Assembly (NCBI GenBank): GCA_009692425.1
Contig: SHZF01000004.1
Span: forward strand, 10,175 to 74,174
Direction: 5' to 3'
Length of the DNA: 64,000 nt
Source: Myxococcales bacterium
GTDB lineage: Bacteria > Myxococcota_A > UBA9042
This document shows, one piece after another, positions 1,385 to 18,521 of this stretch. The notes below the pieces were generated by a model, which saw only the letters and a list, made by a program, of their open reading frames with translations, made no database searches and had not been told where the DNA came from. The position numbers and the translations under genes were made by a program. Positions within the stretch are counted from its first letter, which is position 1. Every line of letters starts with the position of its first letter.

Positions 1385-2104
1385 TCACGGCCTGAGCTGG
1401 GGCAACTCGAGGGCGCGCCCTGCGCCGAGTTGCACTGCATATTGCGACCCGTGTGCAGCCACGAGTGCGCTGCGGTGGGCAGCGGAAGTCGCGGTCGTGA
1501 GCGCCGCGTAGGTCGTGGCGGCGCTGCCGCACAGCGCGAGTCCGGCGCCCGCGCTAGGCTCGGTGGCTACGTTCAAGGCGATGCCATGACCCGCGACCCC
1601 GTGGGCTTCGTGCAAGCCCAGGCTGGCGAATTTGCCGCCAGCGAACCACACGCCGGCGTCGGCGCCACTGCGCACTTCCGCGGCACAACCGTATGAACGG
1701 GCCAGTTCTGCGGCGGCGAACAACAATTCGGCAGCGAGGCCTGCGAGACCAGTGCGTTCACAGCGCACCGCAACGAAAGCAACAAGTTGGCCGGGCGCAT
1801 GCAGCGTGCCGAGGCCGCCGCGTGGAGCGGGCTCCACCGCGATGCGCTGCGTGGCGCACTGGGCGATCGTGGCAGCGAGCGCGGCCCGTCCGGCGGGCAG
1901 GTGGGCGCGCCGGCCCAGCGTAAAGATGGGCTCGGCAGGCTCGAACAGGAGGAGTTCCGCGCAGCCAGTTTCCGCCACGACGGCCTCCGCGGCGGCGTTG
2001 GCGGCCAGCGCGGTGCCGAACGGAATGCGGCCGAGCCAGCGCGTGCGTGCGCCGCGGAGCCACCCGCTTGCGCAAGTGCAGGCCGGGTTCAGCGACGCAT
2101 TCAT
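1385..2104 (-). CDS. lipB: Lipoyl(octanoyl) transferase LipB
   Basis: RGGLGTLHAPGQLV, KFASLGLH...GHGIALNV match the LipB catalytic region (RGGxxTxHGPGQ / G(L/I)ALNV). Confidence 0.8.
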   Translation of the reverse strand: MNASLNPACTCASGWLRGARTRWLGRIPFGTALAANAAAEAVVAETGCAELLLFEPAEPIFTLGRRAHLPAGRAALAATIAQCATQRIAVEPAPRGGLGTLHAPGQLVAFVAVRCERTGLAGLAAELLFAAAELARSYGCAAEVRSGADAGVWFAGGKFASLGLHEAHGVAGHGIALNVATEPSAGAGLALCGSAATTYAALTTATSAAHRSALVAAHGSQYAVQLGAGRALELPQLRP

Positions 2105-2946
2105 CCGCGCAGCGCGAGCCAGGCCTGGACGACCGCCCCGCCGAACAGGACGCCATCGACGCGATCGAGCATGCCGCCGTGCCCAGGCAGCAGTGCGCCC
2201 GAGTCCTTGGTATCGGTGGCGCGCTTGAACAGGGACTCCGCGAGATCGCCGAGTTGGCCGGCAATGCCCACGGCGGCACCCAGCGCCAACCCACCGACAA
2301 CGGCGCCGCCGGGGAGGAGCGCCCAGATCGTGAACAGTCCTGCCGCCATGGATGCGATCAGCCCCCCTACGGCGCCCTCGACCGTCTTCTTCGGGCTGAC
2401 GAGCGCGTGGAAGCGGCGGCGCCCGAATGCCCGGCCCGCGAAATAGGCACCCGTGTCACCGGCGAACACGATGACGAAAGTGCCCATGAGGGCGCCGCGC
2501 CCTTCGTCGAAGGGTCCCAGCACGAACCCGCCGACCTGGGCCGATGCGGCAGCCGGCAGCGCCGACCGCCCGTACATTGCGACGAGCGCGCCGATCAACA
2601 TGCCGACGTATCCGATCGCCAGCACCCCGAGCCCCGCGCGGCGGGCGGCCGTGCCCACGTCATCGACGCGCCACAGGGCGATCGTCATCGCGCCGAGGGG
2701 TCCGAGCGCCACGACCATGGGCCACAGGGCGGGGCCGAGCAGGGGGGAGAGCGCGACGGCGACGGTCAGGACCTCGCATACGATGCGGTCCAGCATCCGC
2801 ATGTCGCGGTACATCCGCAGGAGTTCGGCCGTACACCGCCAGGCGGCAAAACCGAGCACGCCATACAGCGCAGCCTTCGGAGCCCACAGCACGACCCACA
2901 CGAGCAGGGGGGCCAGTACGAGCCCGGTGGCGATGCGGACGAACAC
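2101..2946 (-). CDS. cdsA: Phosphatidate cytidylyltransferase CdsA
   Basis: Multi-TM protein with SPKKTVEG, GDLAESLFKR, GHGGMLDRVDG, the CTP_transf_1 signature. Confidence 0.85.
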   Translation of the reverse strand: MFVRIATGLVLAPLLVWVVLWAPKAALYGVLGFAAWRCTAELLRMYRDMRMLDRIVCEVLTVAVALSPLLGPALWPMVVALGPLGAMTIALWRVDDVGTAARRAGLGVLAIGYVGMLIGALVAMYGRSALPAAASAQVGGFVLGPFDEGRGALMGTFVIVFAGDTGAYFAGRAFGRRRFHALVSPKKTVEGAVGGLIASMAAGLFTIWALLPGGAVVGGLALGAAVGIAGQLGDLAESLFKRATDTKDSGALLPGHGGMLDRVDGVLFGGAVVQAWLALRG

Positions 2947-3044
2947 GGGCGACCTCGCTGGGAACCGGCAGACGCGCGTATGAGGGCGTCGAAAGCGGGC
3001 TTGCGTGCTGCAACGCTACTGCGCGGTGCGCGCGCGAACAAGGA

Positions 3045-3881
3045 TCACGAGCGCGGTGTCGCTTCGGATCGGCCGAACCGGCGTTGGCGGCGGGCATAGT
3101 CGAGCAAGGCGGCGGCCAGTTCAGGCTCCCCGAATTCCGGCCAGGTCGTGTCGGTGAACCACAACTCCGCGTATGCGCACTGCCACAGCAGGAAGTTCGA
3201 CAGGCGCCGCTCGCCGGACGTGCGCACGATGAGGTCGGGAGGCCCGGCCAGAGGGGCAGTCCACAGCGCGGACTCGAAGCGGGTTTCGTCGATCGCGTCC
3301 AGCGCCAGGCGGCCAGATTGCACCTCGGCGGCGAGACGGCGGGCGGCGGCGACGATCTCCTCACGGCCTCCATAGGACAGGCAAAGGCACAGCGTCATGC
3401 CGGTGCCGTCGGCAGTCGCCCGCATGGTCGCTTCGAGGGCCGCGCGCACGCCGAGCGGCAACCGGGCGAGGTCTCCGATCGCCAGCAACCGGATGCCATT
3501 GTCACGCATTTCGCGCAGTTCGCCAGCCAGGTACTCGACGAGCAACCCCATCAGGGCATCGACCTCGCCGCGCGGTCGCGCCCAATTCTGCGCACTGAAC
3601 GCGTAGAGGGTGAGCGTCCGCAGGCCCAAGCGGCGGGCCATGCGCGTGACCGTGCGCACCGTGGCGGCGCCCGCGCGGTGGCCGTCCTGGCGCGCGAGGC
3701 CACGGGCCTGCGCCCAACGGCCGTTGCCGTCCATGACGACCGCGAGGTGGCGGGGCAGACGTCCCTGACACCGCGCGAGGTCGAGGTCGTCTTGCCATGC
3801 CGAACTGGGGGCCGACTGCGTGCCGGTCGCGGCGGCGTAGGCCGGAAAATCATGGGATGCCATGAGGTTCTCCTTTGACAA
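3045..3881 (-). CDS. uppS: Undecaprenyl-diphosphate synthase UppS. It has a ~40 aa N-terminal extension, so the true start may be an internal Met.
   Basis: HLAVVMDGNGRWA, RTSGERRLSNFLLWQ are canonical cis-prenyltransferase motifs. Confidence 0.88.
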   Translation of the reverse strand: MSKENLMASHDFPAYAAATGTQSAPSSAWQDDLDLARCQGRLPRHLAVVMDGNGRWAQARGLARQDGHRAGAATVRTVTRMARRLGLRTLTLYAFSAQNWARPRGEVDALMGLLVEYLAGELREMRDNGIRLLAIGDLARLPLGVRAALEATMRATADGTGMTLCLCLSYGGREEIVAAARRLAAEVQSGRLALDAIDETRFESALWTAPLAGPPDLIVRTSGERRLSNFLLWQCAYAELWFTDTTWPEFGEPELAAALLDYARRQRRFGRSEATPRS

Positions 3882-4848
3882 CCGGCGCCGTGACCGGGGC
3901 CTCGCGGGCAGCCGGCCACGCGCAGCCGCGCCACAGCACCCACCCGGCCCACGCCGCGAGAGGGAGGCTGATGAGTTGAGACGTGGACAGCAGGCCGCCC
4001 AGCCACAGGCCGCGGTCGTCGGCGCGCAGGAATTCGACGCCGAACCGGAACACTGCGTACGACAACATGAACCAGAAGAACACCTCGCCGTCGAAGCGGG
4101 CGCCCTTCTTGTAGCGAGCCCGACACACCAAGAAGATCACCGCGCAAGCCATGGCTTCGTAGAGCTGCGTGGCATGGACGGGCAGGCTGGCCCGGGCGAG
4201 GTCGGACAGGCGGTGTTCGGCGAGGTGGTGGTCCCAGGCCGGCGAGTGGCGCGGGAATGCGAGGCCGAAGGGGCCATCGGTGACCCGACCGAAGCAGCAG
4301 CCGGCGAGGACGCAGCCGGTGCGGCCGAACACGAGGCCCAGCGCGATCGCCCACGCGGCAATGTCGGCAAAGCGCCACACCGGCACCCGGCGGCGGCGCA
4401 GGAACCACAGCCCGGTCGGCACCGCGAGCAGGAAGCCGCCGTAGTAGGCATAGCCGCCGTACCATATCTTGACCACGCGCAGGCAGTCGCGATGCTGGCG
4501 GCACAGCCCGCTGGCGGCCTCGCACCAGTCGCCCAGGCCGGCGTCGAGGCACTGCGCGTCTGCGGCGCACTTCATGCCGTGGCCGAGCGCGAGCGCGGGC
4601 ACGGCCAAGGGGTCGGTGCAGAGGTGGACGTAGTCCCAGAATTGGCCGTCGGCGACAATGTGCAGCGCGCGCGCACCGACCAGGCCGCACGCCAGCATTA
4701 GCAGGCCGCAATCCAAGATGGCATTGCCGTCGAGTCCGACGCGCATTCCTTCGGCGTGGGCCCACAAGATCGCGAGCGTGAAGCCGACCATCAGCAGCGT
4801 AAAGTACGCTGGCAATACGGTGATGCCGAGGTCGAACGAAGGATGCAT
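3850..4848 (-). CDS. lgt: Prolipoprotein diacylglyceryl transferase Lgt. It carries a ~50 aa Cys-rich insertion before the W-x-GG-x-x-x-GG motif.
   Basis: MHPSFDLGITVLP start found at 4848-4846. Motifs IWYGGYAYYGG, GRTGCVLAGCCFG, HATQLYE, FLRADDRG. The 722-aa track ORF 3850..6018 continues upstream in-frame by chance, but that part is Arg-rich garbage and overlaps lspA. Confidence 0.82.
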   Translation of the reverse strand: MHPSFDLGITVLPAYFTLLMVGFTLAILWAHAEGMRVGLDGNAILDCGLLMLACGLVGARALHIVADGQFWDYVHLCTDPLAVPALALGHGMKCAADAQCLDAGLGDWCEAASGLCRQHRDCLRVVKIWYGGYAYYGGFLLAVPTGLWFLRRRRVPVWRFADIAAWAIALGLVFGRTGCVLAGCCFGRVTDGPFGLAFPRHSPAWDHHLAEHRLSDLARASLPVHATQLYEAMACAVIFLVCRARYKKGARFDGEVFFWFMLSYAVFRFGVEFLRADDRGLWLGGLLSTSQLISLPLAAWAGWVLWRGCAWPAAREAPVTAPVVKGEPHGIP

Positions 4849-4853
4849 CGACG

Positions 4854-5837
4854 TCAGCGCCCGGCGGGAGGTGCGACGGCGCTTGCGTCGACCGGCCGCT
4901 TGGCGAGGACCATCTCGAGCGCAATCGCGATGACCCCGGCCGTGATGCCGATGTCGGCGACGTTGTAGACGGGCCAGCCATAGACGCGCTCGGCCCCGAC
5001 GACGAAGTTGTAGACGAAGTCGACGACGACGTGGAAGCGCAGGCGATCGACGAGGTTGCCCAGGGCTCCGCCGAGAATCGCGGCGAGGGCCCAGGACGAC
5101 CAGGCAGTGCCCATGCGCCCCTGCCACAGCGTCCAGCCCATGGCGAGGCTGGCGACCAGTGAGATCACGACGAAAAGCACGTGACGGAAACCAGCTGGTG
5201 CGGTCGCGAGGAAGCTCCAGGCGGCGCCAGGATTCTCGGCATACACATAGGAGAAGTAGCCGTCGATCACCGAAATGGTGCGTTCTCGCAGCAGGTACGT
5301 CACCCCGGGCTCGCGCGGCGCGGTCGGGTCGGCGACGGTGCCGCGCGTCTGCACCGTGTGTGCGTCGAACAGGGACTGCACCGCCGCGGCGTCGACCCGC
5401 CACGCCTTTGCGGCGACCTCGGCGAGCGACTGCCCGACGTCCTGTTGGCGGACCCAGGCGCGGCGCGGCGCCGGAAAGCCAGAGCCCTGCAACGCGGTCA
5501 GGTCGAGCCCGACATCTTCGGCCTGGACCGCGCTGCTGGCGGCACGGCCCGCCCACTTGTGAGCCCGCACGACGAGACCGTTGCGCACCGCAGCGGCAAA
5601 TTCGCCAGCGGAGACGCCGCGCCGGGCGAACGCAGCAGCCACGGTGTGGTCCTCCGGTTGGGCGCCGGCGGGGACGGCGAGCGGGTGGACGACGTTGGCG
5701 AGCGCCTCGATGGCCCACTGCTTGGACCACAGATCGAGGCCCAGGGTCAGCGCGACGCAGGCGAACAGCAGGGTGCGGGCAGGCGGTGGCGACGACATCG
5801 AGACTCCTGCCCAGCGTGCGCGGCGCAGTCGGTTCAC
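4854..5837 (-). CDS. lspA: Lipoprotein signal peptidase II (LspA). It is unusually long at 327 aa, with a ~150 aa insertion between conserved N- and C-terminal blocks. A later start (e.g. Met14, 5798) is possible.
   Basis: LDLWSKQWA near the N-terminus. GGALGNLVDRLRFHVVVDFVYNF...WPVYNVADIGITAGVIAIAL near the C-terminus, the signal peptidase II catalytic Asp blocks. The stop at 4854 lies 6 nt before the lgt start. Confidence 0.78.
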   Translation of the reverse strand: MNRLRRARWAGVSMSSPPPARTLLFACVALTLGLDLWSKQWAIEALANVVHPLAVPAGAQPEDHTVAAAFARRGVSAGEFAAAVRNGLVVRAHKWAGRAASSAVQAEDVGLDLTALQGSGFPAPRRAWVRQQDVGQSLAEVAAKAWRVDAAAVQSLFDAHTVQTRGTVADPTAPREPGVTYLLRERTISVIDGYFSYVYAENPGAAWSFLATAPAGFRHVLFVVISLVASLAMGWTLWQGRMGTAWSSWALAAILGGALGNLVDRLRFHVVVDFVYNFVVGAERVYGWPVYNVADIGITAGVIAIALEMVLAKRPVDASAVAPPAGR

Positions 5838-6035
5838 CGGCCCGACAACCCGACTGCCCTGGGGGAGATTCCGGGTCCGCGAAAGGGGGCGGGATTGTGC
5901 GGGCGGCGTCGGGCGCCGTCAACGAGATGCTGTCCCCCGACCGCCGCCTTCGGCGCATTTTGTCGTTGCCGTCGTCGGTTGGCGGTTCGACGCACCCGGT
6001 GTACGCCTTCACCGCCAACCTCCTAGGCGCCTAGA

Positions 6036-6059
6036 ACTGAACAAGAATTCGGCGTTCAG
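6036..6059. promoter_or_regulatory. Perfect 6-bp inverted repeat CTGAAC-N12-GTTCAG (contains GAATTC) in the divergent lspA / 6179-gene intergenic region; candidate operator.
   Basis: Read directly: ctgaacaagaattcggcgttcag. It sits in a local AT-richer patch of an otherwise GC-rich intergenic region. Confidence 0.3.
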
Positions 6060-6178
6060 GGAAGGTTGGCTGGTGCATCGGGGGGCCCGCGTGCTCGCTG
6101 CCGGTCGCACGACGGTTGCGTGCCGGACCGAGGCCCGCCTACGCTGTGCGTGCGCCCGGTGCGGTGCGGTGAACCTGC

Positions 6179-7030
6179 GTGACACGCGCCTCCCTCGATA
6201 CGGGCAGTCCTTGCCACCATGCAGGCGACGGCCCCCACTGCGTCCTGTGCGGCGCGAACGCAGCCGGCCAGCGGGTCCCAGCCGAGAACGCGCCGATTGC
6301 GGTGGATGCTGCCGTGCGCGGAGCCCTCGACGGTGGAGCGACGGCCATCGTGCTGCGCGGTGGCGACCTGCTGCAGCGCCCCGACGCGCTCGACATGCTG
6401 GCCCGGGCGACGCAGTTCGGGGCACGCGACATCGAAGTGTGGACGGCGGGCCGGGCCTTGGCGCGGGCCGGCGCGGCCGAGGCAGTGCGGGCGGCCGGCG
6501 TGACTCGTGTCGCCATCCCCCTGCACGGCGACACGGCGGCGGCCCACGATTGGGTGGTGGGGCAGGCAGGTGCCTTCCAGCAAGCGCTCGCGGCGCTGAA
6601 GCGGGCGCGCGCTGCCGGTCTGCGCACGACGGTGCTCGCGTCGGTCGTGCGTCCGACGTACCGCCAGTTAGGCGGACTCGTGCAGAAGGCGCTGGCGCTG
6701 CAGGTCGATGGTTTCCGCTTCATCCGGGTCGATGGGACGGAGCGCGAGCGCAATCCCCTGCTCGCGCCGCCGGCGCTGGCGGGTCCGTGGGTGGCGAGCG
6801 CTGTCGTGCGAGCCGAGGCCGCACGCCGGCGAGTCGCCATCGAGGGGTTGCCTGCGTGCGTGCTCGGAACTGCCGCCGCGCACATCGAAACGGGCCTCAG
6901 CGGCTCCGGCGAGCAGGGGCCGCCGTGCGCCACCTGCACATGGCGCGCGCGCTGTGCCGGCATGCCGCCGCTTGCCGTGGTCGCGCACGGGTGGACCGCA
7001 ATCGAAGCCCGCCGGGATGTGCCGCACTGA
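6179..7030 (+). CDS. Radical-SAM-like protein with a noncanonical Cys spacing (C-x8-C-x2-C instead of CxxxCxxC) and a Cys-rich C-terminus; GTG start.
   Basis: SPCHHAGDGPHCVLCG at the N-terminus. IVLRGGDLLQRPD resembles the GGEPLL(R)xD SAM-binding block of the MoaA/PqqE type. C-terminal CVLG...CATCTWRARC. Strong GC3 bias in this frame supports coding. Confidence 0.55.
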   Translation: MTRASLDTGSPCHHAGDGPHCVLCGANAAGQRVPAENAPIAVDAAVRGALDGGATAIVLRGGDLLQRPDALDMLARATQFGARDIEVWTAGRALARAGAAEAVRAAGVTRVAIPLHGDTAAAHDWVVGQAGAFQQALAALKRARAAGLRTTVLASVVRPTYRQLGGLVQKALALQVDGFRFIRVDGTERERNPLLAPPALAGPWVASAVVRAEAARRRVAIEGLPACVLGTAAAHIETGLSGSGEQGPPCATCTWRARCAGMPPLAVVAHGWTAIEARRDVPH

Positions 7031-7274
7031 CGGGCGGGAGTCGCGCGCCTCCGGTATCGGCAACCGAAACGCCCATAGAAGCAACAATCTCGCTGGCGGG
7101 GCTTGCAATCCGCACGGTCTGGACCCCATCCTGCAAGGCGCGCAATCTGCGGTCGCCCGATCGGGTCGGCCGCAGCGAACCCCGGAGCCGTCCCCCGGCC
7201 GATCGGTTCGCAGCGCCAGTCCGCAGCGAGCGGCCCACCCGGTGCCGCCGCGCGACCTTGGGACGGAGCCAGTC

Positions 7275-9281
7275 ATGACGAGCGTCTCGCCGCCACAACC
7301 TCCGCTGCCGGGCGACTCGGCCTCGGGCAGCATCGATATCGCGGCCCTGGTGGCTTCGGGCCTGCTCACGCGCGATGAAGCCCGCGCGCTGGAACACGCC
7401 CAGCAGGCCGAGACCGGTGCGGGCAGCCTCGTGCGAATGGAGGCTCTGCCGGAAACGGGAGGAGGCGGCGATCAGAAAGACGCGGTGAAGGAAACCGCGA
7501 TGAAGCACAAGCGCCACTGGGTACGCGTGACCCGTGTGTGCAACCAGCGCTGCACGTTCTGCCTGGATTCGATGAACCAGGACGGCTCGATGGTCGACGT
7601 CGAGTCGCTCAAGGCCTACATCCTGCTCGGCCGCCGCATGGGCCGCGAGCGCCTGATCCTGTCGGGCGGCGAAGCGAGCGTGCACCCGCAGTTCATCGAT
7701 CTGATCCGCTACGGCCGCCAGGTCGGCTATGACTGGGTGCAGACCGTCACCAACGGCATGATGTTCAGCTACAAGCGGTTCGCGCAGGCGGCGGCGGACG
7801 CGGGCCTCAACGAGGCGACGGTCTCGATGCACGGCCACACCGCCCACTTGCACGACAAGCTGACCGGCACGCCGGGCGCCTTCGTGACGGGCGTCAAGGG
7901 GATGCAGAACCTGCAGGCCACCGGCCAGGTCGTCGTCAACGTCGATGTCGTGATCAACAAGCAGAACTACAAGGCGCTGCCTGAGATCATCGAGTACTAC
8001 CACGACCGGCTGGGCATTCGGGAATTCGATCTGCTGCACATCATTCCGTTCGGCCGTGGCTTCGACGAGCACCGCCACTCGCTGTTTTTCGACCTCAACG
8101 ACGCCGTTCCGTATTTCCGCAAGGCTTTCGCGTGGTCGCAGAAGCCGGGCGTCTACCTGTGGACGAATCGCCTGCCGGTGACGTACCTGGAGGGCAACGA
8201 GAAGCTCATCCAGGACCCGCACAAGTTGTTCAGCGAGTTCGATGGCGGGCGGCACAATTTCGAGGGCTTCCTGCGGCGCGGGCTCAAGCCCGACTGCCAC
8301 GGCGAGCGCTGCGACTACTGCTTTCTCGATGGGCCGTGCCGCCAGACGATGTTCCCGTACCGCACGATGCTGGAGGCGGGCTCGTTCCCGGCCGTGCGAC
8401 TCGATGCGCGCCACGTCTGGCAGGGCACCGAGGCGCGCGCCAAGTTCGAGAGCCAGCGACCGCAGCGGGTGAAGCTGACCGCCCGCGACGCCGAAGAAGC
8501 TGCCGGCGCGTTGGATCGCCTGCCGTTTGCCGGCGCGGACGTCACCGTCGAGTTGGCGGCGGGCGCCGCGACGACCGCCCTGCACGGACTGCCCCAGGTG
8601 CGGCGCTTTGCTGTGGCCACCGTGGCCGACGCCGCCCGCATTCTGCAAGGCCCGGATGCCGTGCCCGCGCCGCACGAAGTCGAGGTCCGACTCGACCAGC
8701 CATTGGCCGCATGGCTGCTGGAACATGCCGAACTGGTGGCGCAATGGGGCAAGCGACTGGTGCTGACGCTGCGCACCCACGAATACCTGTCGGAGTCGCA
8801 GGCCACCGACCCGGACCCGGCGTCCTTGCGCGCACTCGCGGCGCTGGGGGCGCGCACGAAGAACGTGCCGAAATGCATGACGGGGACCGCAGCCGAGCCC
8901 CACGACCATCAGGTACTCGACGCCACCTTGCTCGACGGCGCCGGGCACCTCGACCTCGACCGCTACGTCAACCACTTCGTGGTCGAGGAGTACTTCGCCA
9001 AATCGCTGCGCTGCGGCCGCTGCGCCGAGGTCGATCGCTGCCACGGGGTGCACGTCAACTACGTGCGTAACCATGGCTTTGCGGTCATGGCCCCGCTCGA
9101 CGAAGCGGGCCTGCCGCTAGCGGACGCCGAGAGCTTCGACGACCTCGCGAAGAAGGTCGCCGATGCCACCGCCCGCCGCGAAAAGCGCGAGCGCGACAAG
9201 CTGGTCGGCATGCACCGGCCGCGGCTGCTGGAACCCACCGGTCTCGCGATCGGCCGGGTCGAAGAGACCGCAGGAACCTGA
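7275..9281 (+). CDS. Radical SAM enzyme, 668 aa, with a 75-aa N-terminal extension and a long C-terminal extension carrying SPASM-like Cys clusters. An alternative internal start at 7500 (MKHKRHW) has a good RBS.
   Basis: CNQRCTFC (CxxxCxxC), ILSGGEASVHPQF (GGE motif), HGHTAHLHDKLTGTPG, then CHGERCDYCFLDGPC and CGRCAEVDRCHG. The 6708 start of the track ORF is rejected, since the upstream part is an Arg-rich frame artefact. Codon GC3 bias begins at 7275. Confidence 0.85.
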   Translation: MTSVSPPQPPLPGDSASGSIDIAALVASGLLTRDEARALEHAQQAETGAGSLVRMEALPETGGGGDQKDAVKETAMKHKRHWVRVTRVCNQRCTFCLDSMNQDGSMVDVESLKAYILLGRRMGRERLILSGGEASVHPQFIDLIRYGRQVGYDWVQTVTNGMMFSYKRFAQAAADAGLNEATVSMHGHTAHLHDKLTGTPGAFVTGVKGMQNLQATGQVVVNVDVVINKQNYKALPEIIEYYHDRLGIREFDLLHIIPFGRGFDEHRHSLFFDLNDAVPYFRKAFAWSQKPGVYLWTNRLPVTYLEGNEKLIQDPHKLFSEFDGGRHNFEGFLRRGLKPDCHGERCDYCFLDGPCRQTMFPYRTMLEAGSFPAVRLDARHVWQGTEARAKFESQRPQRVKLTARDAEEAAGALDRLPFAGADVTVELAAGAATTALHGLPQVRRFAVATVADAARILQGPDAVPAPHEVEVRLDQPLAAWLLEHAELVAQWGKRLVLTLRTHEYLSESQATDPDPASLRALAALGARTKNVPKCMTGTAAEPHDHQVLDATLLDGAGHLDLDRYVNHFVVEEYFAKSLRCGRCAEVDRCHGVHVNYVRNHGFAVMAPLDEAGLPLADAESFDDLAKKVADATARREKRERDKLVGMHRPRLLEPTGLAIGRVEETAGT

Positions 9282-9312
9282 TCGGCACGAACGCGAGGAG
9301 GCAGGGTCCGCC

Positions 9313-10539
9313 ATGGCGAACATCGGCTACATCCAGATGGTGCGCCACTGCAACCAGAACTGCGGGTTCTGCTCGAATCCGGAGACGCCGTTCTTCCATG
9401 ATCTCGAACAGGTCCACCGCATCGTCGACGACTTCGTGGTGCGCGGCTACTTCGGCGTGATCCTGACGGGCGGCGAGCCGACGTTGTCGCCCATCCTGCC
9501 CGATGCCATTCGCTATGCGCGCGCCCAGGGCCTGCACGTGCGCATGATCACGAACGGGCAGAAGCTCGCGGACCCGGCGTACTGCGACACGGTGTGGCAG
9601 GCGGGGCTGCAGCACGTGCACGTGAGCATCCACAGCCACAAGCACAAGCTCGAGGACTTCCTGACCGGCACGCCGGGCTCGCTGGACTGGGCCGAAAAGG
9701 CGTTGGCGAACCTCGCCAAGACCGACATCACCGTCAACATCAACACGGTGATCAACCGCTACAACTGCGACCACCTGCACGAGAACATCGAGTGGTTCAT
9801 CGAGCACTTCCCGTTCATCCGGCACTTCGTCTGGAACAATCTCGACCCCTCGATCGGCCGGGCGACGACGAACAACTACTTCACGCCCAAGCTCAAGGAC
9901 CTCGAAGTCTCGCTGCACAAGGCGATGCGGCGGCTGCACGAGACGGGGCGCTCCTTCCGCGTCGAGCGCGTGCCGCTGTGCTACATGACTGAGTTTGCCC
10001 ACTGTTCGACGGAGACGCGCAAAATCGTGAAGTCCGAGGAGCGCATCGTCCACTTCCTCGATCAAAAGGGCACCGTACGGCAGACGGAATGGGGGCACTT
10101 GTACGCCGACGTGTGCGAGACGTGCACATTGCGCTCGGTGTGTGGCGGCCTGTTCGATCGAGGCGATGCCTACGACCCTGCGGAGTTGAGTCCCGTGTTC
10201 GTCGATCCGCGGCCGATCGTGCAGCGCATCGTCGACGATCTGCAGTCAGACCCGGCGTGGCGGCGCGAGAAATTCAAGAACCTCGCGACCCTGCCGTCGC
10301 CGCATCAGGGCCAGCGCTACCGACCGGGCAAGGTGCAGGCGCCCACCGGCGAGCGCCTGGTCGAGCCGAGCCGTGACCCGAAAAAACACCAGGACCCGAC
10401 GGCGCGCGACTGGCACCCCGCGGACGATGAACAGGACGCCGATTTTGGCCTTTTGGTGCCGGCTGAGACCGAGTCTGAGCGCGCCGCCGCCCCTGGCCGC
10501 GTGCCCTTGGACCGGCTGGCGGCGGAACGGGCGCCTTGA
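9313..10539 (+). CDS. Radical SAM enzyme, 409 aa; paralog of the preceding gene; disordered ~90 aa C-terminal tail.
   Basis: MANIGYIQMVRHCNQNCGFC, ILTGGEPTL, HSHKHKLEDFLTGTPG (same H-x-H-x3-L-x2-LTGTPG block as the 7275 gene), CETCTLRSVCGG. Confidence 0.85.
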   Translation: MANIGYIQMVRHCNQNCGFCSNPETPFFHDLEQVHRIVDDFVVRGYFGVILTGGEPTLSPILPDAIRYARAQGLHVRMITNGQKLADPAYCDTVWQAGLQHVHVSIHSHKHKLEDFLTGTPGSLDWAEKALANLAKTDITVNINTVINRYNCDHLHENIEWFIEHFPFIRHFVWNNLDPSIGRATTNNYFTPKLKDLEVSLHKAMRRLHETGRSFRVERVPLCYMTEFAHCSTETRKIVKSEERIVHFLDQKGTVRQTEWGHLYADVCETCTLRSVCGGLFDRGDAYDPAELSPVFVDPRPIVQRIVDDLQSDPAWRREKFKNLATLPSPHQGQRYRPGKVQAPTGERLVEPSRDPKKHQDPTARDWHPADDEQDADFGLLVPAETESERAAAPGRVPLDRLAAERAP

Positions 10540-10563
10540 CGTGCGGACGCGGCGGGCACCGGG

Positions 10564-10604
10564 TAGCCAGCGGGTCCTCTATCTGGCTAGCCAACGCGTC
10601 CTCT
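10564..10604. promoter_or_regulatory. Imperfect 17-bp direct repeat (tagccagcgggtcctct / tagccaacgcgtcctct) that also forms a TAGCCAG...CTGGCTA hairpin, in the 142-bp gap between the second radical SAM gene and the small-ORF pair.
   Basis: Read directly from 10561-10610. Confidence 0.35.
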
Positions 10605-10680
10605 GCCTTGAAGCCAACAGCAACGTGAAGTAAGAAGCCGCCCCGGCGGCACCCTCCCCCGGCGGGACCATGGAGCGATA

Positions 10681-11199
10681 ATGAGCGAACATTCGATCGA
10701 GACCTTCGACGCCGCTGCGGGCCGCATGACGCTGGCGCTCGACACCGGGCTGTATCCGCTCGAGGTCGTCTACGGCGCGGCCTACATCTTCATCGACCGG
10801 GCGTTCGTGCTGCTCGACCGCGAAGGGGAATCGGGCCAAGGCCGCTACCTCGTGCACCTGCGCACCAAGCAGGGGGCCGACGAGACGAAGCTGCGCGCGC
10901 TGTCCGGCGAGTTCGGCAACGAGCTGCTGAGCCAGGCGTTGCGGCGCAAGGTGGTCAAGGCGAACCAGAAGATCATCGAGGAGATCACGACGCAGGCGAT
11001 CGCGGGGGCAGCAGGCGGCGCGTTGCCGACGGACTTCCTGGGCGGTGCCGACGACGGCCTCGACTTTCTCGATGACCCGCTCGGCATCGCGGTGCCGTGG
11101 GAAGAGAAGTTCAAGAAGAAGAAGCCCGATGCCGCCGACCCGACCAGTGCCGCGGCCATCGCCGACGCCGCCGGTGGTACGGGCGAGGCCAAGCCATGA
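10681..11199 (+). CDS. Hypothetical 172-aa protein: structured N-terminal ~110 aa, then an acidic/Gly-Ala-rich low-complexity tail. Candidate precursor or scaffold of the radical SAM cassette.
   Basis: Complete ORF with coding-like composition. Its stop TGA (11197-11199) overlaps the ATG (11196-11198) of the next ORF in an ATGA. Confidence 0.55.
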   Translation: MSEHSIETFDAAAGRMTLALDTGLYPLEVVYGAAYIFIDRAFVLLDREGESGQGRYLVHLRTKQGADETKLRALSGEFGNELLSQALRRKVVKANQKIIEEITTQAIAGAAGGALPTDFLGGADDGLDFLDDPLGIAVPWEEKFKKKKPDAADPTSAAAIADAAGGTGEAKP

Positions 11200-11429
11200 C
11201 GGCCGCCGTCACGGTCAAGCTGCACCGGACGCTCTACATGCAGCAGGCACTCCAGGAGGCGGGCCAGGCCTTTGCGGAACTCGCCTCGTTCGAGATCGTG
11301 CGCGACGGCGAGTACTACGCCGTGCACATCGCCGACATCGACGCCGAAGTCGAGGGTGATCTGGTCGCTGAGTTCTGCAACCACGCGCTGGTCCACACGT
11401 GGAACCGCAAACGGAAAACCGTCGCATGA
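11196..11429 (+). CDS. Hypothetical 77-aa protein (MTAAVTVKLHRTLYMQQALQEAGQAFAELASFEIVRDGEYYAVHIADIDAEVEGDLVAEFCNHALVHTWNRKRKTVA). Possible small partner/RRE-like or HxsD-like accessory protein.
   Basis: ATGA overlap at both ends (11196/11199 and 11426/11429). The track's longer ORF 11097..11429 has an Arg-rich N-terminus that I reject. Confidence 0.5.
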   Translation: MTAAVTVKLHRTLYMQQALQEAGQAFAELASFEIVRDGEYYAVHIADIDAEVEGDLVAEFCNHALVHTWNRKRKTVA

Positions 11430-12925
11430 GCTACCTCGCCGGCCTGAACCTCGACGATGTCCCCGCCGATCGGCTCGTGCCGTTCAATCACCGTGCCGTG
11501 GGCGACCGCGTGCTGGTGTCGAACGATCTCGGCGATCACGTGTTCCTAGCGCCCGGCGAGTTCCGTGCGTTCGTGACGGGCCAGGTTGCCGCCGACACCG
11601 ATCTGTACGGCAAGCTGGCAGCGGCCAACCTGTTCGCGGCCAGCATCGACGTGGGCAAGCAGGCGGAACGCTGGCGCCGCAAGAAGCAGTACCTGTTCGT
11701 CGGGCCGACGCTGCACGCGTTCGTGTTGACGCACCGCTGCAACCACGGTTGCCAGTACTGCCACTCGTCGATCGTCGGCATGACGCGCACCGACACCGAC
11801 ATGCCGATCGATGTCGCCGAGCGCGCGGTCGACCTCGCCTTCCAGACCACGAGCCCGAGCCTGACGATCGAGTTCCAGGGCGGCGAGCCGTTGGCGAACT
11901 GGGAGGTGCTGCAGCACATCGTCGAGTATGCGCGGCAGAAGAATGCGCTCGCCGGCAAGAACCTGTCGTTCGCCCTCGTCACGAACTTGTCGCTGATGGA
12001 CGAGGAGCGGCTCGACTACTTGCTCGACCGCAAGGTGCAGTTGTGCACGAGCCTCGACGGCCCGGCAGACCTGCACAACAAGGTGCGCATCTATAAGGAA
12101 GGCGACAGCCACGACCTCGTGATGAAATGGATGGCGCGCATCAACGAGCGCTACGTCGAGATGGGCCTCGACCCGAACTTGTACCGTGTCGAAGCCTTGC
12201 CGACGATCACGCGCCACGCGCTGGCGCGGCCCAAGGACGTGGTGGACCAGTACGTGGCATTGGGCTGTCGCGCGGTGTTCCTGCGCAAGCTCGATCCGTT
12301 CGGGTTTGCCGCCCGCACGGCCGGCACGCTCGGCTATTCGATGGACGAGTTCCTCACGTTCTACCAGGAGGCGGTGGACTACATCATCGAACTCAACCGG
12401 CGCGGCGTGCAGGTGATGGAACGGCACGCCGGGATCATGCTGTCGAAAATCCTCAACGACGACGAGCCGAACTACCTCGACCTGCGCACGCCGGGCGGCG
12501 CGGTGACAGGGCAGCTCGGCTATGCGCCCGACGGCGGCGTGTACTCGTCGGACGAGGGGCGCTTCGTGGCGGCGATGGGCGACGAGATGTTCCGCATCGG
12601 CACGGTGACGGACACGTACCACCAGATCGTGACGAACGCGCAGACCCGCGCGCTCGTGATGGCGGGACTCAACGACGGGCAGCCCGACTGCGTGACGTGC
12701 GTGTACAAGCCCTGGTGCGGCCAGCAGGTGGAGTACAACTACAAGACGCAGGGCTCGATCCACGGCCGGATGCGCGACTCGGTGTGGTGCCGCAAGCACA
12801 AGACGATCTTCGACTACCTGATGGGCAAGCTGGCCAAGGCGAACGCCGAAGACCTCGCGATGTTCCAGCGCTGGACCACGAACCGAACGCTGGATCATTT
12901 CATGCAGGAACGCGGAGCGTTGTAG
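11426..12925 (+). CDS. Radical SAM / SPASM-domain maturase of the AtsB/anSME-like class, 499 aa, with a ~100-aa N-terminal domain before the Cys triad.
   Basis: CNHGCQYCH (CxxxCxxC), IEFQGGEPL, C-terminal CVTCVYKPWCGQ ... WCRK (SPASM-type). The start MSYLAGLNL at 11426 overlaps the previous stop. Confidence 0.85.
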   Translation: MSYLAGLNLDDVPADRLVPFNHRAVGDRVLVSNDLGDHVFLAPGEFRAFVTGQVAADTDLYGKLAAANLFAASIDVGKQAERWRRKKQYLFVGPTLHAFVLTHRCNHGCQYCHSSIVGMTRTDTDMPIDVAERAVDLAFQTTSPSLTIEFQGGEPLANWEVLQHIVEYARQKNALAGKNLSFALVTNLSLMDEERLDYLLDRKVQLCTSLDGPADLHNKVRIYKEGDSHDLVMKWMARINERYVEMGLDPNLYRVEALPTITRHALARPKDVVDQYVALGCRAVFLRKLDPFGFAARTAGTLGYSMDEFLTFYQEAVDYIIELNRRGVQVMERHAGIMLSKILNDDEPNYLDLRTPGGAVTGQLGYAPDGGVYSSDEGRFVAAMGDEMFRIGTVTDTYHQIVTNAQTRALVMAGLNDGQPDCVTCVYKPWCGQQVEYNYKTQGSIHGRMRDSVWCRKHKTIFDYLMGKLAKANAEDLAMFQRWTTNRTLDHFMQERGAL

Positions 12926-13071
12926 ATGGCGGCACGCACGAGAAACACGCCGCTGCGGTTTGAACCGATGCGCGGGGGCGTGCTAGCATGGTGCGTTCAT
13001 GCAACGCGCAGTCGGCCGGGTACCTCCGCCCCGTCGGCATGACGCGGCCGGGCCTGCGGGAGCCCTTCGCC

Positions 13072-16000
13072 ATGCGCCGATTCTGCGACCGTGCCCGAAT
13101 CCGCCCGTGGCGCCTTGCGCTCGCGTGGCTGGCGTGGGCGGCTGCGTGCACCGAAGAACCCTTGCAGCAAGGGTCGCTCGACGCGATTGGCGCCGACACG
13201 CGCGGAACCGGCGCCGACGCGGCCCCAGACACCGCGACGGTCGATGCCAAGCTGACGGACGCGGCCAGCGACGCCAAGTCCGACGCCGCGAACGACACGA
13301 AAACCGACGAGAAGACGGACAGCGCGGGCCCCGACAGCGCGATCGACAACGGCGCCGACGGCCTGCTGGACACGGCGCCCACCGACGATGCGGACGGGAT
13401 CGTCGATGAATTCGCTGCCGATCAGGACGGACCAGACAGCGCTGGCACCGATGCGGACGCTGCGGGCACCGTGGACGCCGGCGCGGGAGACGCGCCTCCC
13501 AACGTCAAGAGCGTGCATTCGAATGCGTGCACCGCGGCCAGCGACTGCCTGATCCCATGTGCATCGGGCAACTGCGTGGCGGGCACGTGCAGCTATCAGC
13601 CCAAAGGCAAGGGCTGCGTGGCCGACCTCGGCGGCGGCAAGGTGGGCTGCTTCGGCCCCGGCGACACGAGCGACGACAAGCCCTGCCTCGTGTGCCAGCC
13701 GTTGGTGTCGAGTACGGCGCTGACGACGGCGCTGTGGGTGAATGGCCTCGACGGCGAGCCGGGACTGCAGTTCGCCGACACCGCGGGCGCCGGCATCGGC
13801 TGGGGATTCAGCGACAAGAAGTCGAAGTCGGGCGGCAAGTCGCTGTGGTTCGGCGACCCCAAGACAGGCAACTACGCGATAGGCAAGGCGGTCGGCGGCA
13901 CGGCGACCTTGCCGGAGACGAAGGTGCCGCAGTTCAGCGGCACGCAGCCCAAGGTCGCGTTCTGGCTGTGGCTCGACACCGAGGAGTTCGACGGCCACGA
14001 CGTGCTGACGCTCGGCGTGCTCGAAGGCGGAGCCACGAAGGTCCTGTGGACGTCGGACGCGATCAAGGGCACCACGGGTGGCGCATGGCAGCGCATCGAG
14101 GCCGAACTCGTGGGCTACGGTGGCAAGACGGTGGCGCTGCAGTTCGGCTTCGACTCAAAGGACGAGGTCGCCAACACGTTCAGTGGCCCCTTCCTCGACG
14201 ACGTGGCCGTGCTGTCGGGCTGCTGCGCCGGGGCCGCGGATTGCGACGACGGCAACGCGTGCAGCGACGACAGTTGCGCGGCGGGAGCGGGCGGCCTGCC
14301 CCTGTGCAGCCACGCCAAGAAGGCCGGGTGCTGCTCGACGTCGGGCGACTGCGACGACAAGGTGTTGTGCACGTTCGATCTGTGCTCCGGGCCGGGCGGC
14401 ACGTGCAGCCACAACGCAAAGCCCGGCTGTTGCCTGACCGACAACGGCTGCGACGATGGCAACGCGCTGACGATCGACAAGTGCGTGGCTTCGAAGTGCC
14501 TGATCATCGACACCGCGTGCAAGTCGGACGCCGACTGCAAGACGAACGATCCGTGCCAGAAGGGGTCGTGCCAGGCCGGAATCTGCGCGTTCCAATCGAC
14601 GTGCTGCATCGCCGACAGCGAGTGCGACGACTTCAACCCGTGCACGATCGACGGCTGCGACAAGGGCAAATGCGTCACCACGGCATCGACGGTGCCGGGC
14701 TGCTGCTCGCCCCAGCCACTTTTCAACCAGTTCGGCAGCAGCGACGAGGGCTGGACGTCGGGCCCGGCGTCGCCCCAAAACAACGACTGGCATTGGAAGG
14801 CGCTGCCGTCCGCAGTCAGCCCGCCGGGCGCCCTGCACTTTGGATTGAAAGACAAAGACATGGGGCTTACGGCCAGCCAGCCGCAGTCCAAGATCACGAC
14901 GGCGAGCCCGCCGATCACGCTGCTGCCCGGCAAGGAAGTGACGTTCAAACTCTGGTACATGTCGGACATGACGGCCGCCAGTGGCAACGTGCGGGTGTTC
15001 GCGGTGGTCGACGGCAAGGAGGTGACGTTCGGCTACCTGAGCCTGAACACGAGCAAGAAGTGGACGACGTTCGGCCCGTATGACCTCTCGCCGGCGATGG
15101 GCAAGACGATCCAGATCAAGCTGGAGATGACGCTGACACCCGTTGGCTCGGTCACGGGCACCGGGCTGTGGGTCGACGACTTCGAGGTGAATTCGACGTG
15201 TCAGGCCAAGAAGTGCGCGGCCTCGGGCACCTGCGGCATCGGTGCGATGCCATGCGTGGCCGGCGTGTGCACGGACGGTCAGTGCACGTACCCGAACGCC
15301 TGCTGCGTCACGAGTGCCGACTGCGCCGACCAGAACCTGTGCACAAGCGACGTGTGCGTGAACACGAAGTGCCAGTTCAACCCGATCGCGAAGTGCTGCA
15401 TGGGCAGCGGCGACTGTGCCGACGGCAACCCGTGCACGCAAGACATCTGCCCAGCGCCCGGCCAGATCTGCCAGTGGCCGCCGGTGCCCGGCTGCTGCCT
15501 GTCGTCGGTCGAATGCAATGACAGCAACGCGTGCACGAAGGACGGCTGCATCCTGAACAAGTGCGTCAACGAGAACACGTGCTGCAAGGTCGACAAGGAC
15601 TGCGACGACAGTGAGACAAAGTGCACGGTCGACAAGTGCGTGGCCCAGATCTGCACGCACACGTCGACGGGCGCGGCCGGTTGCTGCTCGCCGATCGTGT
15701 GGGAGAACGACTTCGATCAGGGCGACCTCAAGGGCATCAAGGTGCAGAACTCCGCTGGCGCCAAGGGCTGGAACCACTGGCCGAACGCGCAGTTGTCGAA
15801 GTCGGGCAAGGGCGTGCTGTACTATGGCGATCCCGCGGTCGGCAATTTCGACTTCAGCTTGTCGAGCGGCACGGCCAAGACGCTGGCGATCCAGTTGCCG
15901 GTGTCGACGCCGTCGCACATGACGTTCTGGCTCTACATGGACACCGAGCAGGGCCCGCCCTACGACTCGCTCGCCGTGCGCGTCTACGTCGATGGCGCCC

Positions 16001-18452: not shown

Positions 18453-18521
18453 GGGCCGAAGTGCTCGCCAGCGGGGATCGGGACCTCGCAGGCAGCCTCA
18501 GCGTGTGTGTGGAGGGATGTG

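What the first reader, a model, noticed from the sequence alone, without database searches (positions are those of the whole stretch)
6179..7030. Radical-SAM-like protein with C-x8-C-x2-C instead of the canonical triad, opening the cassette
The 283-aa product has a GGEPLL-like SAM-binding block (RGGDLLQRPD) and TIM-barrel-like beta-alpha periodicity typical of radical SAM cores. Its first Cys motif is CHHAGDGPHCVLC, an eight-residue insertion with two His between Cys1 and Cys2. It ends in a second Cys cluster (CVLG...CATCTWRARC).

It could be a catalytically dead scaffold paralog or a genuinely noncanonical cluster-binding variant (compare the ThiC, HmdB or Dph2 exceptions). Either is unusual as the first gene of a multi-rSAM operon.
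Basis: partly seen in the sequence, partly recalled or inferred. Interest (0 to 1): 0.55.

Follow-up and report, generated by a model that had tools for sequence, protein, structure and literature searches.

The report
Degenerating radical-SAM paralog in HXS-like cassette
This is a real, conserved gene for a radical-SAM-fold iron-sulfur protein whose SAM-cluster motif is stretched to C-x8-C-x2-C; close relatives in the same gene cassette have lost that motif altogether, so it is probably an accessory subunit rather than a working radical enzyme.

Summary
ORF 6179-7030 (+) encodes a 283-aa protein under purifying selection: its 73%-identical, gapless ortholog gives dN/dS 0.21. It just passes Pfam Radical_SAM (34.7 bits against a threshold of 29.5). 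AlphaFold2 gives a confident radical-SAM three-quarter barrel (pLDDT 88), and every top PDB match is a radical SAM enzyme.

Its seven Cys form two groups: C12-x8-C21-x2-C24, and C227...C250-x2-C253-x5-C259.

The protein belongs to a small Myxococcota clade that branches from canonical HxsC-like radical SAM proteins. It is always the first gene of a conserved cassette: this protein, a 668-aa rSAM, an HxsC-like rSAM, HxsD, an HxsD-like protein and HxsB. The cassette is transcribed divergently from lspA-lgt-uppS-cdsA, and no HxsA substrate lies in the window.

Across the clade the four C-terminal Cys are invariant. The N-terminal triad is not:
- One subclade keeps it as C-x-H-x6-C-P-x-C (11 full-length sequences).
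- It is lost at least twice inside that subclade and is absent from two sister subclades, with the cassette essentially unchanged.

Other SAM-motif residues are also altered, and this is the least conserved protein in the cassette.

Best reading (0.5): a pseudo- or noncanonical HxsC paralog acting as an Fe-S accessory subunit. Main rival (0.3): an active enzyme with an expanded motif. Either way it is a new variant of a known kind.

The parts
6179..7030 (+). Target gene: 283-aa radical-SAM-fold protein, a divergent HxsC-like paralog
   Evidence: ORF and translation. GC3 0.83. PF04055 at 34.7 bits. Ortholog dN/dS 0.21. AF2 pLDDT 88.2. All top Foldseek PDB hits are radical SAM enzymes.
6212..6250 (+). 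Codons for C12-H13-H14-...-C21-V-L-C24, the C-x8-C-x2-C motif that sits where CX3CX2C normally does
   Evidence: Read from the translation. MAFFT aligns C12, C21 and C24 with Cys1, Cys2 and Cys3 of canonical relatives, with a 5-residue insert between Cys1 and Cys2. Conserved as C-x-H-x6-C-P-x-C in 11 full-length relatives. Lies in the low-pLDDT loop 8-38 that follows beta1.
6356..6385 (+). RGGDLLQRPD, the counterpart of the GGEPTL SAM-amino-binding motif at the end of beta2
   Evidence: G62 is invariant and D/E63 is kept. The Pro of GGEP is lost across the clade.
6857..6955 (+). C227 ... C250-x2-C253-x5-C259-x-G, the putative auxiliary [4Fe-4S] site (twitch-like)
   Evidence: Invariant in all 22 clade members, in 33 sequences that include canonical relatives and the window's own HxsC-like protein, and in the 60-sequence alignment. 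pLDDT is 81-98 here.
7275..9281 (+). 668-aa radical SAM protein with canonical CNQRCTFC. The rSAM domain spans about aa 79-355, and a C-terminal extension ends in a second P-x-C...C-x2-C-x5-C-x-G motif.
   Evidence: It is 60-90% identical in all related loci.
9313..10539 (+). 408-aa HxsC-like radical SAM protein with canonical CNQNCGFC
   Evidence: TIGR03977 at 98.5 bits, below the 268 cutoff. Translation. Syntenic in the related loci except L005/L006 (gene tables).
10681..11199 (+). HxsD
   Evidence: TIGR03976 at 52.6 bits, above the cutoff of 50.
11196..11429 (+). 77-aa HxsD-like protein
   Evidence: NF038315 HxsD_rel at 63.3 bits, above the cutoff of 41.
11426..12925 (+). HxsB, a radical SAM/SPASM maturase
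   Evidence: TIGR03978 at 502 bits, above the cutoff of 370.
2101..5837 (-). Divergently transcribed cdsA (2101-2946), uppS (3045-3881), lgt (3850-4860) and lspA (4854-5837). This block is syntenic with the cassette in the related loci.
   Evidence: Pfam hits. Synteny.

Best explanation
The gene encodes a divergent paralog of the HxsC branch of twitch-type radical SAM proteins. It keeps the (beta/alpha)6 core and a strictly conserved four-Cys C-terminal site, which is inferred to hold an auxiliary [4Fe-4S] cluster.

Its SAM-cluster site is being dismantled over evolutionary time:
- In the target's lineage the loop between Cys1 and Cys2 carries a 5-residue insert, giving T-G-S-x-C-x-H-x6-C-P/V-x-C.
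- The aromatic residue before Cys3, the Pro of GGEP and the Asn of TNG have all been replaced.
- In sister lineages the three Cys are gone entirely.

The most likely role is inferred, not shown. The protein is a non-catalytic, or at most vestigially SAM-binding, Fe-S accessory subunit. It would pair with one of the canonical HxsC-like enzymes or HxsD-type partners encoded just downstream. In that role it would give structural, substrate-holding or electron-relay support to a Myxococcota-specific HXS-like protein or peptide maturation pathway whose substrate is not encoded beside it. In this lineage the retained Cys3(+His14) site probably still binds a metal or Fe-S centre that is useful but not essential to that role.
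For: **Shown**
- The gene is real and constrained: dN/dS 0.21, with a gapless ortholog of the same length.
- It has the radical SAM fold.
- Its nearest canonical relatives carry CNNxCxFC and GGEPTL, and their best NCBIfam matches are HxsC4 and HxsC.
- The four C-terminal Cys are invariant in every alignment. The N-terminal triad is absent in P0012, P0014-18, P0022, P0023, P0026, P0028, P0154-P0156 and P0158.
- Loci L003/L004 (P0155, one Cys) and L005/L006 (P0022, no Cys) keep the first-gene position, the 660-aa rSAM, both HxsD-type genes and HxsB. L005/L006 alone lack the HxsC-like gene.
- An NJ tree built without the N-terminal 45 residues places the noncanonical clade as one group. There are at least two triad losses nested inside the C-x8-C-x2-C subclade, and two further subclades have no triad at all.
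- Motif changes run across the clade: GGEPTL to GG[DE]LL, TNG to T[AS]G, C-x-F-C to C-P-[LVI]-C.
- It is the least conserved cassette member: 35-45% identity, against 60-82% for its partners across the same loci. Against L001 its dN is 0.197, compared with 0.056 for the adjacent rSAM.
- Orthologs fall below Pfam's gathering score, at 23.7-28.3 bits.

**Supporting the pairing idea**
- Fused tandem HxsC-like x2 proteins exist, and one of them also lies next to an HxsD gene.
- HxsC forms a complex with HxsD in the characterised E. coli system (PMC13128918).
Against: - In the target's own lineage C12, C21, C24 and H14 are conserved in 11 full-length sequences down to about 35% identity. Codons 1-30 are at least as constrained as the rest of the gene (dN/dS 0.14). 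The site therefore clearly still matters here.
- The acidic residue of GG[DE] and the barrel are retained.
- Expanded Cys1-Cys2 spacings occur in other radical SAM clusters (PMC9477430). From my own knowledge, QueE (CX14CX2C) and HmdB (CX5CX2C) are active enzymes with expanded spacing.
- No biochemical data exist.
- The NJ tree has no support values.
- The partner protein is not identified.
Confidence: 0.5

Rival explanations
1. It is a fully active radical SAM enzyme. Its SAM-binding [4Fe-4S] cluster is held by an expanded C-x8-C-x2-C loop, and it catalyses its own step in the cassette's maturation chemistry. The Cys-less relatives would be separate, later degenerations.
For: - Three Cys at the canonical position are conserved in 11 full-length sequences.
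- GG[DE] and the (beta/alpha)6 core are retained.
- The N-terminal codons are under purifying selection.
- Other radical SAM clusters with CX4-CX11 spacings, including CX8CX2C, are catalogued (PMC9477430).
- The target itself passes Pfam's gathering score.
Against: - Triad losses are nested within the same subclade, with the cassette unchanged at L003/L004.
- Several SAM-contacting motif positions change together.
- Its amino-acid substitution rate is about 3.5 times that of the neighbouring rSAM.
- The cassette already holds three canonical radical SAM enzymes.
Confidence: 0.3
2. The N-terminal Cys3 plus His14 site binds something other than a SAM-accessible [4Fe-4S] cluster. Candidates are a fully ligated Cys3His cluster, a [2Fe-2S] cluster or Zn. 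It would serve as a structural or redox element, and the open iron needed for SAM would be blocked.
For: - His at Cys1+2 is present in 11 of 11 full-length triad-bearing sequences, where canonical relatives have Asn.
- The aromatic residue before Cys3 is lost.
- The loop is 5 residues longer than the canonical one.
Against: - The same His is kept in about 6 of 10 Cys-less relatives, so its conservation does not depend on the Cys.
- No structural or spectroscopic evidence exists.
- The AF2 loop confidence is low.
Confidence: 0.12
3. It is not a functional gene: either a GC-rich spurious ORF or a decaying pseudogene.
For: - Many overlapping ORFs exist in this 69% GC region.
- One public gene call truncates it to 238 aa.
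- Its similarity to Pfam is borderline.
Against: - GC3 is 0.83 in this frame.
- The ortholog is gapless and of equal length, with dN/dS 0.21 at dS 0.92.
- The gene sits at the same cassette position in every related locus fetched.
- The AF2 fold is confident.
Confidence: 0.02

Closest known systems
HxsC, the His-Xaa-Ser system radical SAM maturase (TIGR03977), and the HxsC4 variant (NF038332)
   Same: - These are the best-matching named families for the target's nearest canonical relatives. The HxsC match covers nearly the whole target: residues 21-262 against model positions 39-288 of 292.
- The architecture is the same: a radical SAM core followed by a short C-terminal Cys motif.
- The target is encoded with HxsD, an HxsD-like protein and HxsB.
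- In E. coli, HxsC binds HxsD and helps mature HxsA (PMC13128918).
   Different: - Scores are far below the cutoffs: 48 against 268 bits, and 38 against 500 bits.
- The motif is C-x8-C-x2-C rather than CX3CX2C, and GGEP and TNG are altered.
- No HxsA (HxS-repeat protein) lies anywhere in the 64-kb window.
- The gene order and content differ from HxsD-B-C-A, with three HxsC-like genes and two HxsD-type genes.
- The host is Myxococcota, whereas 99.7% of canonical systems are in Pseudomonadota (PMC13128918).
Twitch-domain radical SAM enzymes with solved structures: BlsE (7VOB), SkfB (6EFN), MoaA (1TV7)
   Same: These are the closest solved relatives by sequence profile (BlsE, E = 9e-15) and by fold (BlsE, E = 1.8e-10; SkfB; MoaA). 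All have a three-quarter barrel followed by one C-terminal auxiliary Fe-S site.
   Different: - Identity is only 17-22% and TM-scores are 0.47-0.60.
- Those enzymes have CX3CX2C and are catalytically active.
- No SPASM or twitch HMM matches the target.
Radical SAM clusters with expanded Cys1-Cys2 spacing (RadicalSAM.org megaclusters 4-6-1, -3, -5 and -6 with CX8CX2C; also CX4 to CX11 variants)
   Same: The same kind of deviation: an insertion between the first two Cys of the SAM-cluster motif (PMC9477430).
   Different: Whether the target belongs to any of those megaclusters could not be checked. They are not described as showing repeated loss of the motif. The target's clade branches from HxsC-like proteins.
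TIGR04347 pseudo-SAM/SPASM protein family (haloarchaea)
   Same: A curated precedent for a radical-SAM-derived protein family named as 'pseudo' (family name and description line only). The target scores 47 bits against it, a level shared with many other rSAM families in that scan.
   Different: It is not a member (47 against 525 bits). The taxon and the C-terminal domain differ (full SPASM there). The target still has three Cys at the site.

Membership tests
Radical SAM superfamily (PF04055) | Significant match to the family HMM above its gathering score | tested here: met
   34.7 bits against a gathering score of 29.5, E = 2.5e-8. This is marginal: orthologs P0002, P0022 and P0155 score 25.7, 28.3 and 23.7 bits, below the threshold.
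Radical SAM superfamily (PF04055) | Partial (beta/alpha)6 TIM-barrel core | tested here: met
   The AF2 model has pLDDT 88.2 and six beta-alpha units. Every listed Foldseek hit against the PDB that carries a functional name is a radical SAM enzyme.
Radical SAM superfamily (PF04055) | CX3CX2C motif after beta1 binding the SAM-ligating [4Fe-4S] cluster | tested here: not met
   The motif is C12-x8-C21-x2-C24. The three Cys align with the canonical ones but with a 5-residue insert. They are absent in many clade members.
Radical SAM superfamily (PF04055) | GGE(P) motif and other SAM-contact motifs | tested here: inconclusive
   GGD is present (G62 invariant, acidic residue kept). The Pro of GGEP, the Asn of TNG and the aromatic residue before Cys3 are all replaced across the clade.
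Radical SAM superfamily (PF04055) | Reductive cleavage of SAM to a 5'-deoxyadenosyl radical | not testable with these tools
   This needs biochemistry.
HxsC (TIGR03977) | Score above the curated equivalog cutoff | tested here: not met
   48 bits against a cutoff of 267.9.
HxsC (TIGR03977) | Encoded with HxsB and HxsD | tested here: met
   HxsB scores 502 bits (cutoff 370) and HxsD 52.6 bits (cutoff 50), within 5 kb on the same strand. The same block recurs in the related loci, although no HxsB hit appeared in L010-L012.
HxsC (TIGR03977) | Encoded with an HxsA substrate carrying His-Xaa-Ser repeats | tested here: not met
   No run of HxS repeats appears in any of the six frames of the 64-kb window. 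Genes downstream of HxsB are not conserved between loci.
HxsC4 (NF038332) | Score above the curated cutoff | tested here: not met
   38.4 bits against a cutoff of 500.
SPASM/twitch auxiliary-cluster domain | Match to the SPASM HMM (PF13186), or a CX2CX5CX3C-type motif with further Cys binding one or two auxiliary clusters | tested here: inconclusive
   There is no SPASM hit even at E <= 10. However, an invariant C...C-x2-C-x5-C-x-G motif of four Cys, enough for one cluster, is present. The closest structures are twitch enzymes.
TIGR04347 pseudo-SAM/SPASM | Score above the curated cutoff | tested here: not met
   47 bits against a cutoff of 525. It is an analogy only.

The most novel reading that the evidence does not exclude
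The clade could be a previously undescribed class of radical-SAM-derived Fe-S subunit, caught in transition from enzyme to pseudo-enzyme. In the target's lineage a Cys3His-type site would have replaced the SAM-binding cluster.

It would serve a Myxococcota-specific HXS-like maturation machine with three HxsC-type proteins, two HxsD-type proteins and HxsB, and no HxsA. The substrates would be encoded elsewhere. They might be the lipoproteins implied by the conserved linkage to lgt and lspA, and by the giant Cys-rich lipobox proteins found near the cassette in most loci.
Probability: 0.12. Interest if true: 0.7.

Novelty: new variant of a known kind. Interest (0 to 1): 0.42.

Why it matters
The canonical HXS system was shown only in 2026 to be an antiphage machine in which radical SAM enzymes mature a periplasmic effector. 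That study found it almost entirely in Pseudomonadota (PMC13128918).

This window and ten related fetched loci (L003-L012) show a conserved Myxococcota cassette built from the same parts list, but with extra HxsC-type and HxsD-type paralogs and no HxsA. So HxsB/C/D-type machinery is used for something else there.

The target protein offers a natural series within one orthologous cassette position: a canonical motif in the nearest relatives outside the clade, then an expanded motif, then no motif. Such a series is useful in two ways:
- It shows how radical SAM enzymes turn into non-catalytic Fe-S subunits.
- It flags a risk of over-annotation, because 'radical SAM protein' calls that rest on PF04055 alone would be misleading for much of this clade.

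Taken alone, the deviation in spacing is not unprecedented.

Tried and rejected
- **Spurious ORF or pseudogene:** rejected on GC3, dN/dS and synteny.
- **Downstream ATG start (the 238-aa public call P0001):** rejected. The first 24 residues are 21/24 identical in the ortholog, and dN/dS for codons 1-30 is 0.14 at dS 1.4.
- **SPASM domain:** no HMM hit even at E <= 10.
- **HxsA precursor:** two regex scans of all six frames found nothing. The 77-aa ORF after HxsD is an HxsD-like protein, not a precursor. Genes downstream of HxsB are not conserved across loci.
- **Intergenic region 7031-7274 and the region upstream of the gene:** no Rfam family at gathering score across 5500-13000. The only promoter-like and terminator-like matches in 5700-7400 lie upstream at about 5894-5955 and were not pursued; none lies in 7031-7274.
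- **PADLOC defence models:** no hit for the target, and only generic viperin-like similarity for the neighbouring rSAMs.
- **Is the C-terminal half of the 668-aa neighbour a second target-like domain?** hhalign found only weak similarity (probability 38%), limited to the last ~77 residues that carry the Cys motif. A structure prediction was not run because no permitted homologs cover that half.
- **Cys-Cys distances:** the model coordinates are not exposed, so they could not be measured.
- **Context of a canonical ~319-aa relative (P0251):** uninformative. It sits between transporter genes, and no DNA was available.

Full report
**1. The observation**

The window is 69% GC, so long ORFs occur in every frame. 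A codon-position GC test singles out the + frame from 6173 to 7030, with GC3 of 0.83.

The ORF starts at GTG 6179, two codons after an in-frame TGA, and encodes 283 aa.
- C12-HHAGDGPH-C21-VL-C24.
- RGGDLLQRPD at residues 60-69.
- C227 (CVLG), then C250-AT-C253-TWRAR-C259.

These seven are the only cysteines in the protein.

Pfam Radical_SAM matches residues 20-157 at 34.7 bits, against a gathering score of 29.5, with E = 2.5e-8. NCBIfam gives only sub-threshold matches to many twitch/SPASM-type radical SAM families. The HxsC match is almost full-length: residues 21-262 against model positions 39-288 of 292.

**2. It is a real, constrained gene**

The 5.8-billion-protein collection holds an identical protein, miscalled from a downstream start (P0001, 238 aa), and one ortholog, P0002. 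P0002 is 283 aa, 73% identical and gapless, and its DNA has the same GTG start.
- Nei-Gojobori dN/dS is 0.21 at dS 0.92.
- For the first 30 codons, which carry the Cys motif, dN/dS is 0.14.
- The adjacent 668-aa rSAM gives 0.094 and lspA gives 0.17.

The frame, including its N-terminus, is therefore translated and under selection. The protein nevertheless changes about 3.5 times faster than its neighbour (dN 0.197 against 0.056).

**3. Fold**

AlphaFold2 was run with a 60-sequence alignment and gave mean pLDDT 88.2 and pTM 0.89. The model shows:
- beta1 at residues 3-7.
- A low-confidence loop at 8-38 that carries the triad.
- Five further beta-alpha units.
- A confident C-terminal sub-domain at 218-283.

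The top-ranked Foldseek hits against the PDB are all radical SAM enzymes: BlsE, GDGT-MAS, SkfB, SuiB, biotin synthase, viperin and MoaA. A sequence profile of the clade also finds BlsE best, at 9e-15. No SPASM HMM hit appears even at E <= 10. The model coordinates are not exposed, so Cys geometry could not be measured.

**4. The family**

An exhaustive phmmer search of 1.84 billion representatives found 2857 hits. Only 15 scored below 1e-30. Reading the sequences shows a gradient.

The closest ~25 proteins, at 33-54% identity and about 250-330 aa, form a clade.
- The four C-terminal Cys, G62 of GG[DE], an H-D pair and two Arg are invariant in it.
- The N-terminal triad is not.
- More distant relatives (about 26-36% identity, about 300 aa) carry canonical CNNxCxFC and GGEPTL. 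Their best NCBIfam hits are HxsC4 and HxsC, still below the cutoffs.

MAFFT aligns C12, C21 and C24 of the target with Cys1, Cys2 and Cys3 of the canonical proteins, with a 5-residue insert after Cys1.

DNA from six Myxococcota MAG loci shows that several apparently Cys-poor hits were simply truncated by gene callers. The recovered motifs are:
- CPHPSISAACPIC
- CPHPFISAVCPLC
- CRHPMPAVACPLC
- CPH[VA]DSPLVCPVC

The subclade consensus is T-[GA]-S-x-C-x-H-x6-C-P-[LVI]-C, seen in 11 full-length sequences. Three more N-terminally truncated gene calls (P0005-P0007) are consistent with it.

It is also kept in about 6 of 10 relatives that lack the Cys.

**5. Loss of the triad**

An NJ tree was built without the N-terminal 45 residues, so that the trait does not drive the topology.
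- The noncanonical clade forms one group relative to the canonical proteins.
- One subclade carries C-x8-C-x2-C. At least two losses are nested inside it: P0155/P0015, and P0154.
- Two further subclades have no triad at all.

Other changes run across the clade: GGEPTL becomes GG[DE]LL, TNG becomes T[AS]G, and the aromatic residue before Cys3 becomes Leu, Val or Ile. The tree has no support values, so the number of independent losses is a minimum estimate rather than a firm count.

**6. Context**

The genes downstream of the target, all on the + strand, are:

| Coordinates | Product | Evidence |
|---|---|---|
| 7275-9281 | 668-aa rSAM, canonical CNQRCTFC | |
| 9313-10539 | 408-aa HxsC-like rSAM, CNQNCGFC | |
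| 10681-11199 | HxsD | TIGR03976 above cutoff |
| 11196-11429 | 77-aa HxsD-like protein | NF038315 above cutoff |
| 11426-12925 | HxsB | TIGR03978, 502 bits |

Upstream and divergent lie lspA, lgt, uppS and cdsA.

The same block recurs in every related locus fetched (L003-L012). There are some differences:
- L005/L006 lack the HxsC-like gene.
- uppS gave no hit in L005/L006 or L011/L012.
- No HxsB hit was seen in L010-L012.
- L010 starts too close to the contig end to show its upstream side.

The block also occurs where the first protein has lost its Cys: P0155 in L003/L004 and P0022 in L005/L006.

Across those loci the target homolog is 35-45% identical. The 668-aa rSAM is 60-71%, the HxsC-like protein 67-82%, HxsD 60-68% and HxsB 69-76%.

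No HxS-repeat protein exists in any frame of the window, and the genes after HxsB are not conserved between loci.

The characterised E. coli HXS system is HxsD-B-C-A. It matures the periplasmic effector HxsA, contains an HxsC-HxsD complex, and is 99.7% confined to Pseudomonadota (PMC13128918). The cassette here is therefore built from related parts but is a different system with an unknown substrate.

**7. Interpretation**

The protein's position in the cassette, its fold and its auxiliary Cys site all persist after the triad is lost. Its core role in the cassette therefore cannot depend on SAM cleavage at that site. This inference is the main support for the accessory-subunit or pseudo-enzyme reading (confidence 0.5).

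Fused tandem HxsC-like proteins exist, and one of them lies next to an HxsD gene. Together with the known HxsC-HxsD complex, this makes a pairing role plausible but does not show it.

In the target's own lineage the Cys3+His site is clearly still selected. An active enzyme with an expanded loop therefore remains a serious rival (0.3). Expanded spacings, including CX8CX2C, are already catalogued elsewhere in the superfamily (PMC9477430). A non-SAM metal site is a third possibility (0.12). A spurious ORF or pseudogene is effectively excluded (0.02).

**8. Verdict**

- 'Unusual as first gene' is not correct, because this is the conserved arrangement.
- Novelty: a new variant of a known kind. It is an uncurated, Myxococcota-restricted HxsC-derived subfamily with a degenerating SAM-cluster motif, set in an uncharacterised HXS-like cassette.
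- Interest is moderate (0.42).

Noticed in passing
window 12988-16191, 16182-18452, 18507-22163 (+): Three giant proteins (1067, 756 and 1218 aa) lie directly after HxsB. Each has 52-75 Cys, InhA-like MAM / choice-of-anchor J domains and weak Dicty_CTDC matches. Their N-termini look like lipoboxes (…AAAC, …VAAC, …AVAC). Similar giant Cys-rich repeat proteins (MopE/Dicty_CTDC hits) lie beyond cdsA in L003 and L005-L009. Whether they are linked to the cassette or to lgt/lspA is unknown.
   Followed up: partly
window 2101-5837 (-): cdsA, uppS, lgt and lspA are transcribed divergently from the cassette, and lspA, lgt and cdsA keep that arrangement in L003-L009 and L011-L012 (uppS gave no hit in L005/L006 or L011/L012). 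The LspA is unusually long at 327 aa, with its Peptidase_A8 domain only at residues 185-310.
   Followed up: partly
window 7275-9281 (+): In the 668-aa rSAM, the radical SAM domain is followed first by a CHGERCDYCFLDGPC Cys motif. A ~300-aa C-terminal extension then ends in a second P-x-C…C-x2-C-x5-C-x-G motif like the target's. hhalign to the target clade is weak (probability 38%) and limited to that tail.
   Followed up: partly
window 11196-11429 (+): A 77-aa ORF overlaps the HxsD stop by 4 nt. It is a curated 'HxsD-like protein' (NF038315, 63 bits against a cutoff of 41). The cassette therefore has two HxsD-type proteins alongside three HxsC-type proteins.
   Followed up: yes
window 6128-6159: A ~32-nt stretch (CCGAGGCCCGCCTACGCTGTGCGTGCGCCCGG), 20-50 nt upstream of the GTG start, is nearly identical in the ortholog's contig L001, while the surrounding intergenic DNA is not alignable. 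It could be a promoter or regulatory element.
   Followed up: no
P0165-P0174; L014 8001-9671: Proteins of 556-714 aa are tandem fusions of two (in P0166 perhaps three) HxsC-like radical SAM domains, each half carrying CX3CX2C. One of them sits next to an HxsD gene, a CHAT protease and an rSAM-methyltransferase fusion. P0161 looks like a tandem of degenerate halves, and P0162 is similar.
   Followed up: partly
P0001 (public gene call of window 6314-7030): A public metagenome annotation starts this gene at an internal codon, giving 238 aa and removing the Cys triad. Several homologs (P0005-P0007, and probably P0008 and P0010) look similarly truncated.
   Followed up: yes
L009, L012 record titles: Two MAGs carry this Myxococcota-type cassette but are titled 'uncultured Enterobacteriaceae bacterium'. 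The taxonomic labels are probably wrong.
   Followed up: no
L010-L012: In these three loci no HxsB hit follows the HxsD-like gene, even though several kb of downstream sequence is held. HxsB may be elsewhere in those genomes or missing.
   Followed up: no
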